From Thermoplasmatales archaeon SW_10_69_26 (GTDB taxonomy: Archaea; Thermoplasmatota; SW-10-69-26), in assembly GCA_003009755.1 (NCBI GenBank), contig PXUB01000003.1, forward strand, positions 25,667-89,666: DNA of 64,000 nt. Reading direction: 5' to 3'. The translations under genes were made by a program, and so were the position numbers. Each line of letters starts with the position of its first letter. Position 1 is the stretch's first letter. The notes beneath the pieces are model-generated. The model had not been told where the DNA came from. It saw only the letters and a program-made list of their open reading frames with translations, and ran no database searches. Below, in pieces: positions 8,252 through 28,830 of the stretch.

Positions 8252-8480
8252 TCATGCGCCCCGCGGGTCGACGAGCCGGAACCCGATGTCCGAGCCCATC
8301 TGCTGATCGAACGCCAGCTGCCTGTTCAGGTACGCCAGCGATTCCAGGTAGCGCGCATTCGCCAGCGGGCCGGCATCCGTCGTCTCGAACCCGATATCCT
8401 CGGCCAACGAGACCGCCTCCCGGCGAGCCTGCTCGTCGCCGGCCGCGACCACCGTCAACGGTTCCCCGCGCACGTCGCCG
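8252..8480 (-). pseudogene. Orphan 3' fragment of an F420-dependent NADP oxidoreductase-family gene
   Basis: Translation VAAGDEQARREAVSLAEDIGFETTDAGPLANARYLESL matches the family C-terminus as I recall it. No N-terminal Rossmann part or start. Confidence 0.7.
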
Positions 8481-8567
8481 GACGGAGAGGCTTCCGAGAA
8501 AGGAACTGTTCGAGGACGCCCCCTCCCGGGGCCGCCTCGTGACCGACCGAGCCGCTGAGGCTCCCCG

Positions 8568-8734
8568 CTATTCGAGCGTGCGGCGCTCGGCCTGCTGTTG
8601 CTCGATCGCCTTGAACAGGGCCTTGAAGTTGCCCTTGCCGAACCCTTGGGCGCCCCTACGCTGGATGATCTCTCGAAGAACATCGTCGGGCGATCCTGGA
8701 TCGGGTTCGTGAACAGCTGCAGCAGGTAGCCCTC
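8568..8734 (-). pseudogene. Displaced duplicate of the hppD 3' end
   Basis: Near-identical to 9811-9975, with a 2-bp insertion (gatctctcg vs gatctcg) and a few substitutions. Confidence 0.92.
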
Positions 8735-8798
8735 GTGACCCCTGGACGTGAGTCCACCTTTCGAAACCATCAAACCGTCGCCGCTGCGTTCGCGATGC

Positions 8799-9119
8799 GT
8801 GCCGAACCGACGGAGAGACGCCGCGAGGGAGTTCGCCCGCCGGCTCGAGCAGTTGCTGGGCGACAACGTGCGGTCGATCCTCCTCTTCGGATCCGTGGCC
8901 CGCGGCGAGGACGACGCTTCCAGCGATGTGGATCTCCTGGTGATCGTTGAGGACGAAGGCGAGGTGCCCGATCTCTCTGAGGCAATCGGGTCCTGGATGG
9001 TGGAGCACGACGAGGTTCTCCAGCTCCACGTCGTCTCGCGGGAGAAGTACGAGGAGCTCCGTTCCAGAGGCACCGCGTTCGCCAACACGATCGCAAGAGA
9101 GGGCGAAGCGCTTGCCTGA
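8799..9119 (+). CDS. Minimal nucleotidyltransferase (MNT) antitoxin
   Basis: LLFGSVARGE....SDVDLLV (GS..DxD); overlaps a downstream HEPN gene. Confidence 0.88.
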   Translation: MPNRRRDAAREFARRLEQLLGDNVRSILLFGSVARGEDDASSDVDLLVIVEDEGEVPDLSEAIGSWMVEHDEVLQLHVVSREKYEELRSRGTAFANTIAREGEALA

Positions 9120-9507
9120 CGGAGCGGACCGGGAAGCGCAGGCGACCTTCGAGGAGGCCGAGCGGTTCCTCGACGAGGCTCATCGCCTCCACCGAGCGGG
9201 TTTCTCCGGGCCCTCGCTTCGATCCTCCTACTATGCCTGTACCACGCGGCGCGAGCTCTGCTCCGTCTCGAGGGAAGCGACCCGAAGACACATCGCGGCG
9301 TGGTTTCCGAGTTCACGCGCCTCCTCGTGCGCGAGGGACCGTTCACGGAGGGAACGAGTGGCGACCTCAGCCGGGTCCTGTCAACGGTTGGAGAGCGACT
9401 ATGAACCCGGCTTGGAGGTCACCCAAGAGAAGGCCAACTGGGCCCTGGAACGCGCCCGACGATTCGTGAACGAGGTAGGTGACGAACTGGCGACACGCCT
9501 GTCGTGA
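9112..9507 (+). pseudogene. HEPN-domain toxin with two compensating frameshifts
   Basis: SYYA in one frame, YHAARALL..PKTHRGVVSEF in another (~9240-9380), then RLESDY back in the first frame. Confidence 0.8.
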
Positions 9508-9510
9508 GGT

Positions 9511-9807
9511 CCAGCCGTCGGACGAGGCAACCTCGAAAACGGAGCTGGCGAGAACGAGGGGATGAGAGGACGACCCCTCCCGGGGCCGTCTAACCGGCGG
9601 TGGACGCGACGATGCGAGCGAGGTCGGCGACGAACGAGCGGACCGAGGCAGGGCGTACGAAGAGATGAGTTCGGCGTGAGCGGTCGCTGACGAGGAGCGC
9701 GAAGCAGGGATACCCCTGTGGTATCCCGATGCAGCGCAACGACCGTCAGCGGGACCCGCTCACGCCGGCCTGCCGAGGGAGCTCGTGAGGCAGCCGACCG
9801 ACCGAGC
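9511..9807 (+). ncRNA. Structured non-coding element, homolog of 28331-28830 (opposite strand)
   Basis: Shared motifs gaggtcggcgac..cggaccgaggcagg, cgaagcagg and agccgaccgaccgagc; stems show compensatory changes. Confidence 0.65.
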
Positions 9808-9810
9808 CCC

Positions 9811-10971
9811 CTATTCGAGCGTGCCGCGTTCTTCCTGCTGCTGCTCGATCGCCTTGAACAGGGCCTTGAAGTTGCCCTTGCCGAACCCTTGGGCGCCCTT
9901 GCGCTGGATGATCTCGAAGAACATCGTCGGGCGATCCTGGATCGGGTTCGTGAACAGCTGCAGCAGGTAGCCCTCCTCGTCCTGGTCGACGAGGATGCCG
10001 AGCTCGGCCAGGTCCTCGAGCTTCTCGTCGATGTCTTCGACGGGGATGCGGTCGGGCAGGTCCTCGTAGTAGGTCTCCGGGGCGTCCAGGAAGTCGACGC
10101 CGCGGCCGCGCATCTGGTCGATCGTGGTCAGGATGTCGTCGGTCGTGATCGCCAGGTGCTGCACGCCCGGCCCGGGGTAGAAGTCCACGTACTCCTGGAT
10201 CTGGGACTTCTTGAGGCCCTCGGCGGGCTCGTTGAGCGGGATCTTGACCGACAGGTCGTCGTTGGCCATGACCACGGACCGCAGCGCGGTGTAGTCCGTC
10301 GAGATGTCGTCCTCGTCGAACCCGACGAAGCGCTCGAAGCCGAACACGTCCTCGTAGAAGCTGGCCCAGGGCTCGAGACCGCCCTCCGGCAGGTTGCCGA
10401 CGGTGTGGTCGATCGTGCCGAGGCCGACGTCGCCGGCGCCGTCCGCGTCGTCGTAGGGCTCGTAGCCGGGCAGGAACACGCCGTCGTAGTCGGAGCGGTC
10501 GACGAACGTGTGCACGGTGTCGCCGAACGTCGCGATCGTCGCGATCTCGACGGTGCCATGCTCGTCCTCGAGCGTCTCCGGCTTGCGCACCGCGACCCCG
10601 TCGTCGATCTCGCCCTGCGTGAGCTGATCCTCGTAATCGCGGGCGCGGTCGAGCGCGGTCTGGAACGTGTCCTCGACATCGTCAGCCGCCAAGGCGACGT
10701 CGCGGACGCCGTCGGTGTGCAGAGCCACGTGGTCGGCGATCGTGGTGTCCGGCGTCATCGGCGCCGTCAGGACGATCCGGATGTCCCCCTGCTCCATCAC
10801 GTAGCTGGCCCGATCCTCCACGTCCGTCTCTGGGCCGGCGTAGGCGACGGGTTCGAAGCCGTACGCGTGTTCGTAAACGTAGGCCGCCTGCTTGGCGTTC
10901 CCAACGTACAGTTCGACGTGGTCGAACCCCTCGATCGGGAGCTGTTCCACGTCCGTGTCGTTCGAGGTCAC
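9811..10971 (-). CDS. hppD: 4-hydroxyphenylpyruvate dioxygenase
   Basis: DHVELYVGNAKQAA, IDHTVGN, SQIQEY...GPGVQHLA, GYLLQLFT, FFEIIQR.G..GFGKGNFKALF. Confidence 0.96.
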   Translation of the reverse strand: MTSNDTDVEQLPIEGFDHVELYVGNAKQAAYVYEHAYGFEPVAYAGPETDVEDRASYVMEQGDIRIVLTAPMTPDTTIADHVALHTDGVRDVALAADDVEDTFQTALDRARDYEDQLTQGEIDDGVAVRKPETLEDEHGTVEIATIATFGDTVHTFVDRSDYDGVFLPGYEPYDDADGAGDVGLGTIDHTVGNLPEGGLEPWASFYEDVFGFERFVGFDEDDISTDYTALRSVVMANDDLSVKIPLNEPAEGLKKSQIQEYVDFYPGPGVQHLAITTDDILTTIDQMRGRGVDFLDAPETYYEDLPDRIPVEDIDEKLEDLAELGILVDQDEEGYLLQLFTNPIQDRPTMFFEIIQRKGAQGFGKGNFKALFKAIEQQQEERGTLE

Positions 10972-20549: not shown

Positions 20550-21018
20550 CCCACCTCGCCGACGATCGGGTCACCGGCGAGACCAGCAGCGAGCGGGACG
20601 TGCTCGTCGTCTTCGCCGCCGAGGAGGCCGACCGCCAGGACACGCCCGCCCCCGCGGCCGCCCTCGCCGCGATGGCCATCGTGGGCGCCGCGCTCCTAAA
20701 CTGCCGGACGTGTTTTGCTTAAGCTCTCGCGCCGGTCTGAGCGAGGTAAGGTCGCGGAGCCCGAGGAAGGAAACCCCTGTGGGTTTTCGACGGATGCTGG
20801 GGGCGACAACGGCCGAGCACCGGTCTGCCACGCAGACCGGTCTCGGCTGCGTACGGATCTTCGATCCGGGCGAATCCAGCGATCGGCCACCGGCCGATCG
20901 GTGGAGAATACGAATCTCCGATTCGTGTGAACCTTCGTCTCGGCTCCGCGCTTTCACCGCCTGAGGGCGGCGAGAGCTTAACCCAAGCATGGCCGGCAGT
21001 CTAGCTCGACGCCGCTGA
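20550..21018 (+). pseudogene. Remnant C-terminus of a surface protein (TPAP-TM-RRR), split by the 20700-21000 element
   Basis: ...DTPAPAAALAAMAIVGAALL|ARRR* is restored when the insertion is removed. No start codon. Confidence 0.65.
20700..21000. mobile_element. 301-bp MITE-like foldback element at a CTAG target
   Basis: Ends ACTGCCGG/CCGGCAGT, imperfect IR 29/35 including the flanking CTAA/CTAG; interior is all hairpins. Confidence 0.8.
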
Positions 21019-23007: not shown

Positions 23008-23258
23008 CCGCTCGCCGACCCTGCCCAAGAGCCGAAGTGAGAGGAGGGGAACACGAAGCCGGGTGCAGGGAGAGGACATCGGCCCGCCGGGCGCCGCCCG
23101 AGCGGCCAGTCTCTCCGTCGCGCTGCCTCGGAACCCGCTGGCCGGGGGTCCCTCCTCGCGCTCCTCGATCTCGTCTCGGTCAGCCGCAGCGAGCGGCCAG
23201 CGGATCCCCCCTCTCCGTGGCCGGGAACTGAAACGACGGAGGCCCGTTCGCTGAGGTG

Positions 23259-28013: not shown

Positions 28014-28331
28014 ATGGCCGAGGACGATGACCAGGGCAGCGGGTTCAACGGGCCTCTGCCCGACGAGCGGAAGCGGGAGATGTTCGCTCTCGCCAAGAAC
28101 CTGCTCGGCGGCTCCCGCCTCGAGGTCGTCTGCGAGGACGGCGAGACCCGCATGGGACGCATCAAGGGCAAGCACAAGCGCCGCATGTGGATCCGCGAGG
28201 GGGATCTGTTGATCGTCAAGCCCTGGGACTTCCAGGACGAGAAGTGCGACGTCGAGTACCGCTACGTCCAGAACCAGTCCGAGTACCTCTCTCGCCGGGG
28301 CATGATCCCCGACGAGCTGGACGTGTTCTAG
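28014..28331 (+). CDS. eif1a: Translation initiation factor aIF-1A
   Basis: LLGG.R..V.CEDG.TR..RI.GK.KRRMWIREGD...V.PW..QD.K.D...RY. Confidence 0.95.
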   Translation: MAEDDDQGSGFNGPLPDERKREMFALAKNLLGGSRLEVVCEDGETRMGRIKGKHKRRMWIREGDLLIVKPWDFQDEKCDVEYRYVQNQSEYLSRRGMIPDELDVF

Positions 28332-28830
28332 CTCGGTCGGTCGGCTCCCTTGGGGTCTCCCGTCGGCAGGCTGCCCCCAGCGGCTCCCGCCGACGGCGTC
28401 GCTCTGGATCGGAACGCCTCCGGCATTCCTGCTTCGAGCTCGTTGTCAGTGACCGCTGAGGCTATGCAGTGGATTCGGGCAGCCTGCCTCGGTCCGACCC
28501 TTCGGTCGCCGACCTCCCTCGCTGTGAAGCCGGGGTCATTGTCAGCGAACATGGGAGGGCGGCCATCCTGCCTTGGGTCCAATCGGCAGAGGCCGGCCCT
28601 CCGAGGAGGACGGATCCTGATCCGTCCGAACCGTGAGGGCTCCTGCCGTCAGGCGAACCCTCGCGGGAAGCCGAGCTTGCTCGGCTGACCCTTCGGTCGC
28701 CGACCTGCCTCGCTGCTGTGCAGCTGCCTGTTGCTGCTTGAAGCCTGGACGATGATAGAGGGGGAACTCCGCAGGTCGTTTCCTCGTCTGAGCGGGGGAG
28801 GTTCTACCGCCAAGAGGGGAACCGATCCCG
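28331..28830 (-). ncRNA. ~500-nt structured non-coding element, homolog of 9511-9807
   Basis: Ends pair, many hairpins, internal 29-nt direct repeat (28496-28524/28687-28715), covariation with the 9.5 kb copy. Confidence 0.65.

What the first reader, a model, noticed from the sequence alone, without database searches (positions are those of the whole stretch)
9511..9807. Unrecognised large structured non-coding family with compensatory base changes (copies at 9.5 kb + and 28.3-28.8 kb -)
Seen: 9511-9807 aligns with the reverse complement of 28331-28800. Connecting motifs are conserved (gaggtcggcgac, cggaccgaggcagg, cgaagcagg, gcctgccga, and an identical 3' 16-mer agccgaccgaccgagc), while stems change but keep pairing: ggcgtgagcgg/ccgctcacgcc vs gcctcagcgg/ccgctgggggc; gcgc/gcgc vs gctc/gagc; ggatacc/ggtatcc vs ggaatgcc/ggcgttcc. 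G-U pairs in this shared module favour + at 9.5 kb and - at 28 kb. Both 3' ends lie at or within 3 bp of the TAG stop of a convergent gene (hppD, aIF1A). A collapsed remnant sits at ~8512-8552. It lacks RNase P and SRP signatures. Inference: a multi-copy structured RNA, or an ssDNA-folding non-autonomous element, under structural selection.
Basis: partly seen in the sequence, partly recalled or inferred. Interest (0 to 1): 0.85.

Follow-up and report, generated by a model that had tools for sequence, protein, structure and literature searches.

The report
Structured RNA core carried by MITEs
The two look-alike stretches are old copies of a small non-autonomous transposon whose interior folds into a conserved rod-shaped RNA, and the same fold occurs in miniature transposons of many bacteria and this group of archaea but is in no RNA family catalogue.

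Summary
Window 9614-9807 (+) and 28331-28522 (-) are two of about 46-80 copies in this 2.8 Mb archaeal genome from a halite metagenome. Each is a ~190-nt module that folds into one long rod (z -7.5 and -6.9). In 15 copies, 28 of 38 pairs show compensatory changes, and 0 of 500 shuffles reach the observed covariation. Rfam 15 has no match.

It is not a free-standing RNA gene family. It is the interior of MITE-like elements. A second subfamily (~300-365 nt, one copy at window 20699-21001) has terminal inverted repeats, TA flanks, and the same ends as the genome's single IS630-family transposase element.

A motif scan found at least 119 copies of the core elsewhere, mostly in bacteria (Planctomycetota, Anaerolineales, a deltaproteobacterium, Bacteroidota). 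There they sit in 160-190-nt MITEs with at least five different end sequences and TA or TWA duplications.

Insertion into the TA of stop codons, with an element that starts with G, regenerates TAG. This explains why copies abut hppD, aIF1A, TFS and tRNA ends.

Four lines point to selection on a sense-strand RNA:
- G-U pairs outnumber A-C mismatches.
- One G-U pair is conserved.
- Copies tend to point the same way as the upstream gene.
- Syntenic copies in other genera differ by compensated pairs.

What the RNA does is unknown. No RNA data were available.

The parts
9614..9807 (+). Module copy A (type 1): closed rod of nested helices P1-P6 with conserved internal loops
   Evidence: CM R1 168.9 bits, E 3e-30; MFE -110.8 kcal/mol, z -7.48
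9508..9613 (+). 5' extension of copy A. It lies between the stop of the HEPN-like ORF and the module. Whether it belongs to the element is unsettled.
   Evidence: Upstream flanks of copies A, C25 and C45 resemble each other. No TA or inverted-repeat boundary was found.
28331..28522 (-). Module copy B (type 1)
   Evidence: CM R1 160.1 bits, E 1.5e-28; MFE -111.3 kcal/mol, z -6.93
28523..28810 (-). Upstream stretch of copy B. It holds a partial second copy of the module's 5' end and other decayed module pieces.
   Evidence: B 86-121 matches B 277-313 at 92%; weak CM hit at 28629-28713, E 0.025; alignment
8512..8552 (+). Collapsed remnant of a type 1 copy with an internal deletion of about 195 nt
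   Evidence: the repeat finder family D6 plus direct reading
8564..8734 (-). Duplicated 3' fragment of the hppD-like gene (93-100% identical to 9807-9975, with a 2-nt shift), next to the remnant
   Evidence: the repeat finder families D1 and D2, spacing 1241-1243
8748..9507 (+). Nucleotidyltransferase gene plus HEPN-like gene, lying between the two repeat copies
   Evidence: Pfam NTP_transf_2 E 3e-10; HEPN E 6e-4, below the curated cut-off
9811..10971 (-). hppD-like dioxygenase gene, convergent with copy A
   Evidence: Pfam Glyoxalase, two stretches, E 2.5e-20
28014..28331 (+). aIF1A gene, convergent with copy B. The last base of its TAG stop is the last base of the module.
   Evidence: Pfam eIF-1a E 1.8e-19; sequence
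20699..21001 (+). Type 2 MITE: IS630-type terminal inverted repeats, TA on both sides, module core at 20751-20813
   Evidence: Sequence; CM core hit 30.1 bits, E 2.5e-4; same ends as the copies
23112..23168 (-). Core-only relic (model positions 76-131)
   Evidence: CM 28.8 bits, E 4e-4

Best explanation
[quoted passage not shown] The interior of these elements is a conserved ~130-190-nt rod-shaped RNA fold.

Shown:
- The family is multi-copy and its helices covary.
- In this genome a second subfamily has terminal inverted repeats and TA flanks identical to those of the one IS630-family (DDE_3) insertion sequence, which itself lacks the fold.
- The same core sits inside MITEs with different ends, and TA or TWA duplications, in several bacterial phyla.
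- Elements lie exactly at stop codons and tRNA 3' ends.

Inferred:
- A transposase supplied in trans cuts and pastes the element into TA. Because the element begins with G, insertion into the TA of a stop codon rebuilds TAG and is harmless. In a ~70% G+C genome such sites are the main tolerated targets.
- After insertion the element is transcribed as the tail of the upstream gene, or from the promoter region in its left end, and the sense strand folds.
- The fold is kept by selection. My best guess is that it acts in cis on that transcript (3'-end protection, processing or insulation). This last step is the weakest.
For: Copy number: 16 to 80 nhmmer hits over 5 rounds; 46 CM hits at E<=0.01.

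Covariation:
- 28 of 38 pairs have compensatory changes.
- On the MAFFT alignment A1, 88.9% of cells are paired against 71.1% in shuffles, with 0 of 500 shuffles as high, and 31.6-40.5% when partners are slid.
- On 73 distinct copies from other genomes, 92.2% against 67.0%, with 0 of 500 on four measures and 2 of 500 on the fifth.

MITE anatomy:
- Type 2 left ends were found in 11 of 12 copies examined and right ends in 8 of 12, all beside TA.
- The IS at C32:~89541-90681 has a 38-nt inverted-repeat pair with the same first ~11 nt, TA flanks and a DDE_3 ORF.
- Discrete elements with inverted ends and TA/TWA repeats were seen in a deltaproteobacterial MAG (8 copies), a planctomycete (8 copies; 67 end-motif matches against 9 for the control), and three further groups (6, 5 and 8 copies).
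- By the crude gene caller, eight copies, all with type 2 left ends (seven of them among the 12), start exactly at the stop of a co-directional gene, and the 3' ends of five copies lie within 6 nt of a convergent gene's stop.

RNA and strand:
- G-U:A-C is 21:12, 17:3 and 100:33.
- One pair is G-U in 40 of 73 copies.
- Copies are co-oriented with the upstream gene in 34 of 45 own copies and 37 of 52 bacterial copies.

Constraint in place:
- 4 of 10 copies in related genera lie at loci where this genome also has a copy (and tRNA-Gln).
- The syntenic pair next to the TFS gene differs by 10 doubly compensated pairs, 0 single changes and 3 broken pairs out of 38.
Against: - For type 1, the finding's own copies, I found only the 3' TA. 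The 5' side has no TA, no clear inverted-repeat boundary, and no matching autonomous element in this genome. Their MITE nature therefore rests on homology of the interior to type 2 and to the bacterial elements.
- No RNA data exist for this organism, so transcription, strand and ends are all inferred.
- The bacterial set was collected with a motif that contains the conserved loops, so loop conservation there is partly circular.
- The CM-fitted alignments A2 and A3 lean towards G-U. The unfitted A1 gives only 21:12.
- Orientation counts rest on a crude gene caller based on third-position G+C.
- A long quasi-palindrome can keep its pairing through template-switch or repair events without any RNA function (my knowledge, not tested).
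Confidence: 0.6

Rival explanations
1. Only a DNA palindrome. The rod is the usual long inverted repeat of a MITE. Pairing is kept because the transposase or folded single-stranded DNA needs it, or by template switching and repair between the arms. There is no RNA function.
For: The whole unit is one hairpin whose outer helix is the terminal inverted repeat. Type 2 and the bacterial copies are clearly mobile DNA. The unfitted alignment gives a weak strand signal, 21 G-U against 12 A-C.
Against: The internal loops are asymmetric and stay unpaired while the stems around them change. Arm-to-arm correction would erase them. One G-U is kept in 40 of 73 copies; on the other strand it would be an A-C mismatch. 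The orientation bias relative to upstream genes (34:11 and 37:15) is not expected for a strand-symmetric DNA feature. The autonomous IS630 element has the same ends but not the core.
Confidence: 0.2
2. A trans-acting RNA gene (protein sponge, ribozyme or regulator) that is the real selected cargo. It repeatedly acquires the ends of whatever TA/TWA-targeting transposase is at hand.
For: The same core occurs with at least five unrelated end sequences and two duplication types. The loops are conserved while the stems covary. Syntenic retention across genera. Copy B has no co-directional upstream gene.
Against: No partner protein gene recurs within 3 kb in 78 copies. Dozens of diverged copies per genome are unusual for a trans-acting RNA gene. 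There is no expression evidence.
Confidence: 0.12
3. A guide-RNA scaffold (omega RNA) of an IS200/IS605-type element that has lost its nuclease gene.
For: Structured, multi-copy, with a sharply defined 3' end next to unique DNA.
Against: No TnpB domains in this 95%-complete genome: PF07282 and PF01385 gave 0 hits, while the controls hit in 8 of 14 genomes. The elements have inverted ends and target duplications, which that family lacks (my knowledge). No nuclease gene recurs beside 78 copies elsewhere. No Rfam hit.
Confidence: 0.02
4. A recombination site of a cassette system (attC-like). This is suggested by the nucleotidyltransferase/HEPN pair flanked by repeats of module plus gene 3' end.
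For: A 1.24-kb direct duplication brackets the two genes. One contig from another sample joins 8540 to 9796 without them. A similar module plus tRNA-end duplication lies at tRNA-Gln.
Against: This is one locus among dozens. The copies are scattered and not in an array. The duplications include long stretches of flanking gene, as homologous recombination would give. I did not search for an integron integrase.
Confidence: 0.03

Closest known systems
bcr1 repeats of the Bacillus cereus group
   Same: A small (~155 bp) interspersed repeat with short direct repeats at its ends. It is transcribed, and compensatory changes keep an RNA fold (passages of PMC3184786 read).
   Different: bcr1 is confined to one bacterial group. 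Here the core is shared by archaea and several bacterial phyla, sits in shells with different ends, and has a matching IS630-family partner in this genome.
ERIC/IRU, Correia (NEMIS) and RUP elements: bacterial MITEs that fold as RNA hairpins in transcripts (recalled, no call)
   Same: TA-flanked miniature elements in intergenic regions. They are co-transcribed with neighbouring genes, and some have orientation-dependent effects on mRNA.
   Different: Those are each limited to a genus or family and have no reported conserved multi-loop core across phyla. No sequence similarity was tested.
Stowaway-like MITEs of the IS630/Tc1/mariner superfamily
   Same: Terminal inverted repeats, TA duplication, no ORF, dependence on a transposase in trans. 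A partner IS with the same ends is present.
   Different: The interior is not a deleted transposase gene but a conserved structured module. Bacterial relatives show 3-bp TWA duplications, which point to a different transposase family.
Omega RNA / PATE elements of IS200/IS605
   Same: Non-autonomous elements that carry only a structured RNA.
   Different: No TnpB or IscB, inverted ends and duplications present, no Rfam match.

Membership tests
MITE of the IS630/Tc1/mariner type | Terminal inverted repeats | tested here: met
   Type 2: the same ~11-nt termini in inverted orientation. For type 1 (the finding's copies) only an imperfect 11-of-15 match between the module's two ends: inconclusive for those.
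MITE of the IS630/Tc1/mariner type | TA target-site duplication | tested here: met
   Type 2: TA on both sides, including copies whose 4-bp flanks differ, which rules out a 4-bp duplication (window 20697-98 and 21002-03). Type 1: TA within 4 nt of the 3' end in 9 of 15 copies, none at the 5' end.
MITE of the IS630/Tc1/mariner type | Autonomous partner with the same ends that encodes a DDE transposase | tested here: met
   C32:~89541-90681: 38-nt inverted repeats, TA flanks, DDE_3 at 79-81 bits. None found for type 1. The only other DDE element has unrelated ends.
MITE of the IS630/Tc1/mariner type | Small, non-coding, many copies | tested here: met
   190-365 nt; 46 CM hits and 80 nhmmer hits.
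Any Rfam 15 family | Covariance-model match | tested here: not met
   0 hits at gathering score on the window and on 18 bacterial loci, apart from an unrelated RNase P. Nothing relevant at E<=10 on copies A, B and one bacterial copy.
TnpB omega RNA / PATE | TnpB or IscB gene in the genome or next to copies | tested here: not met
   PF07282 and PF01385: 0 hits in own genome. No recurrent neighbour among 1738 ORFs beside 78 copies.
Integron attC site | Array of cassettes next to an integron integrase, with core sites at the hairpin base | not tested
   No integrase search was run. The copies are dispersed over at least 30 contigs.
Structured RNA under selection | Significant covariation on an alignment not fitted to the structure | tested here: met
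   A1 (MAFFT): covariation score 0.459 against 0.155 in shuffles, 0 of 500 as high. R-scape itself was not available.
Structured RNA under selection | A transcript of the predicted strand | not testable with these tools
   No RNA run is listed for this DNA.

The most novel reading that the evidence does not exclude
The core is a selfish structured RNA gene, possibly a protein-binding RNA or a ribozyme. It moves between bacteria and archaea by repeatedly borrowing the ends of unrelated TA/TWA-targeting transposases. Individual copies have been kept for their RNA at the 3' ends of housekeeping genes since before these archaeal genera split.
Probability: 0.3. Interest if true: 0.8.

Novelty: new variant of a known kind. 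Interest (0 to 1): 0.6.

Why it matters
Structured bacterial MITEs are known, but each is confined to a narrow group and is usually read as a simple hairpin. Here one multi-helix core with conserved loops is shared by archaea and several bacterial phyla. It rides in shells with different ends, shows a strand and orientation bias, and is retained with compensated changes at syntenic sites. If the RNA has an activity, it would be a widespread new RNA class that spreads as transposon cargo. If it does not, it is still a clean case for studying how a transposon interior stays folded. It also gives a plain reason why repeats in G+C-rich genomes pile up exactly at stop codons. Cultured carriers are among the hits (a complete planctomycete genome and a Bremerella isolate), so the question can be tested at the bench.

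Tried and rejected
- RNase P, SRP and every other Rfam family: no match.
- Omega RNA: rejected.
- Harbinger-type transposase (PF13359) in own genome: 0 hits.
- The other DDE element (PF01609, C32) has unrelated ends.
- Recurrent neighbouring protein: all-against-all BLASTP of 1738 ORFs within 3 kb of 78 copies gave only clusters that are translations of the element itself, or small unrelated clusters.
- Plasmid collection: no match for one archaeal and two bacterial copies.
- Expression: no RNA holder is listed for window 8700-10100, so nothing can be said about transcription.
- 5' boundary of type 1: a search for the reverse complement of the 3' end found only the two 3' ends themselves and one 3-mismatch hit, which is no more than chance (3 matches; 6 of 100 shuffles reach that). 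A 6-nt direct repeat around copy B, 480 nt apart, was seen by eye but has no counterpart at copy A. I give it no weight.
- Literature: six word searches listed no paper that describes this core. I saw only listings and abstract starts, plus three passages of PMC3184786. Supplements were not opened. Subscription journals and ISfinder are outside the library, so a prior description cannot be excluded.
- Planctomycetota survey: 4 of 151 genomes matched, including the one I started from. Only 17 candidates per genome were scored, so the rate is a lower bound.
- The chance expectation for the motif scan (about 0.6 matches in the collection) is my own arithmetic, not a tool result.

Full report
**What is at the coordinates.** BLASTN aligns copy A (9511-9807) and copy B (reverse complement of 28331-28800) only over their last ~195 nt: 74.1% over 197 nt, E 1e-23. 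The unit is therefore window 9614-9807 (+) and 28331-28522 (-). Each folds by itself into one closed rod of nested helices: -110.8 and -111.3 kcal/mol, z -7.48 and -6.93, with 0 of 200 shuffles as good. Rfam 15 has nothing. There were 0 hits at gathering score on the window, 0 at E<=10 on copy A, and four chance-level hits on copy B.

**It is a large family with real covariation.**
- The window is contig C3 of a 2.8 Mb, 49-contig, 95%-complete genome.
- Iterated nhmmer rose from 16 to 80 hits.
- A covariance model built from 15 near-full copies (A1, R1) finds 46 matches at E<=0.01.
- On A1, which is a plain MAFFT alignment, RNAalifold predicts 38 pairs, and 28 of them have compensatory changes.
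- 88.9% of cells pair, against 71.1% after shuffling (0 of 500 as high) and 31.6-40.5% when partners are slid.

**The family is the inside of MITEs.** Anchoring the flanks of 27 copies shows two subfamilies.

Type 2 is 300-365 nt long, with up to 97% identity between copies.
- It has sharp ends. The same ~11-nt terminus is found in inverted orientation at both ends, with TA outside it.
- Left ends were found in 11 of the 12 copies examined and right ends in 8 of 12.
- Some copies have 4-bp flanks that differ between the two sides but share TA. This fits a 2-bp TA duplication.
- The window holds one such element at 20699-21001, with TA at 20697-98 and 21002-03 and the core at 20751-20813.
- The genome has exactly one DDE_3 (IS630-family) hit, at C32:90105-90557. 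That element is ~1.13 kb long, has a 38-nt inverted-repeat pair with the same terminus as type 2, and has TA flanks.
- No model hit falls inside it. The transposase element and the MITE share ends, but only the MITE carries the fold.

Type 1, the finding's copies, is older.
- The best pair is 84% identical.
- Type 1 ends at its 3' side on TA or TAG in 9 of 15 copies.
- I could not find a 5' TA, a clean 5' inverted repeat or a partner element.
- Upstream of several copies lie partial modules.

**Why the copies touch stop codons.** By a crude gene caller based on third-position G+C, eight copies, all with type 2 left ends (seven of them among the 12), begin exactly at the stop codon of a co-directional gene. 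Five further copies, none with type 2 ends, end within 6 nt of a convergent gene's stop. Other copies abut the 3' ends of tRNA-Met, tRNA-Gln and tRNA-Gly. The element starts with G at either end. Insertion into the TA of TAA or TAG therefore leaves TA+G, a stop, in place (inference). In a ~70% G+C genome, harmless TA sites are few. The link to hppD and aIF1A (identities) is thus a target-site effect.

**The same core is widespread in bacteria.**
80 of them were returned as loci. I estimate about 0.6 matches by chance (my own arithmetic).
- By their titles the hits are mostly Planctomycetota (Brocadiaceae, Phycisphaerae, Pirellulales and others), Anaerolineales, one deltaproteobacterial MAG, Bacteroidota/Rhodothermales and Omnitrophota.
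- One hit is a MAG titled an uncultured Thermoplasmatales archaeon. That contig is the one that the genome search places in the window's own family, which gives the likely lineage.
- The source run is labelled a halite metagenome.
- R1 matches 75 of the 80 loci (78 matches). The matches often extend beyond the motif, to model positions 31-162 or 1-191.
- The stored structure is 92.2% paired on 73 distinct rows, against 67.0% in shuffles.
- Aligning copies within single genomes shows discrete 160-190-nt elements with inverted ends: TA flanks in one planctomycete, and 3-bp TWA repeats in the deltaproteobacterium, Anaerolineales, Brocadiaceae and another planctomycete.
- The end sequences differ between these groups.
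- No protein gene recurs beside the copies, and none of these loci hits Rfam.
- The distribution is patchy: 7 of the 21 genomes of the window's class, including its own, 0 of 20 in other classes of the phylum, and 4 of 151 Planctomycetota.
- Caveat: the bacterial set was chosen with the loop motif, so loop conservation there is partly built in.

**RNA or DNA, and which strand.**
- G-U pairs outnumber A-C mismatches 21:12 (A1), 17:3 (A2) and 100:33 (A3). The last two alignments are fitted to the model and lean that way.
- One pair in P6 is G-U in 40 of 73 bacterial rows.
- The loops are purine-rich and asymmetric, and they stay unpaired while the stems change.
- Copies point the same way as the nearest upstream gene in 34 of 45 cases in this genome. 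Among bacterial copies with a called gene within 500 nt, the figure is 37 of 52, after dropping the archaeal locus and loci under 55% G+C.
- A strand-symmetric DNA feature would not show this bias.

**Constraint after insertion.**
- Of 10 copies in related genera, three have flanks that map by tblastx next to a copy in this genome (110-248 nt away). A fourth sits at tRNA-Gln in both genomes.
- The copy beside the TFS gene is syntenic on both sides with one in another genus, and the two are each other's best match.
- Across 38 pairs, these two copies differ by 10 doubly compensated pairs, 0 single changes and 3 broken pairs.
- Independent insertion into the same hot spot cannot be excluded.

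**Signs of recent movement and rearrangement.**
- In the likely source run, a 71-nt contig joins window 9550-9592, which is unique in the assembly, to the left end of a type 2 element, exactly after the TA at 9591-92. The contig has depth 3.6 and one mismatch.
- In another sample, a 214-nt contig (depth 2.3) joins 8540 to 9796. It skips 1255 bp: the gene fragment, the nucleotidyltransferase/HEPN pair and most of copy A. This matches the 1.24-kb direct duplication seen.
- Both are single short contigs and are only hints.

**Verdict.** The thing is a MITE-borne structured module, most likely acting as RNA, and not a free-standing large RNA gene family. Its kind is known: bcr1, whose passages I read, and ERIC and Correia, which I recall without a call. 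Three things are new here: the shared multi-loop core across domains, the swapping of ends, and retention in place. The function remains open.

Noticed in passing
window 8512-9975: A 1.24-kb direct duplication (module remnant plus hppD 3' fragment against full module plus hppD) brackets a nucleotidyltransferase/HEPN-like gene pair. One contig from another halite sample joins 8540 to 9796 without the 1255 bp in between (depth 2.3).
   Followed up: partly
window 9591-9592: A 71-nt contig of the likely source run continues from this TA into the left end of a type 2 element. This suggests a polymorphic, recent insertion inside copy A's 5' extension.
   Followed up: partly
window 20699-21001: A complete type 2 MITE with TA on both sides. 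It starts at a TAA that may be the stop of the upstream ORF.
   Followed up: yes
window 8252-8500 (-): An 82-codon open frame that looks like the C-terminal fragment of a gene, with no N-terminal part and no Pfam match. It sits just left of the module remnant.
   Followed up: partly
L145 936-2077 (G000:C32:~89541-90681): The IS630-family element has a run of seven A followed by an in-frame stop between its N-terminal part and the DDE_3 frame. Transposases made by programmed frameshifting look like this. Its G+C looks lower than that of the genome.
   Followed up: no
G000:C42:19563-20215: tRNA-Gln is followed by a module, then an ~18-nt copy of the tRNA 3' end, then a second diverged module. 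This is an old ~340-bp tandem duplication of tRNA end plus module. A related genus also has a module at its tRNA-Gln.
   Followed up: partly
contig ends of G000: 14 of 80 nhmmer hits lie within 400 nt of a contig end, so the element probably breaks the assembly and the true copy number is higher.
   Followed up: no
window 23112-23168 (-): A core-only relic of the module (28.8 bits) with no recognisable ends.
   Followed up: no
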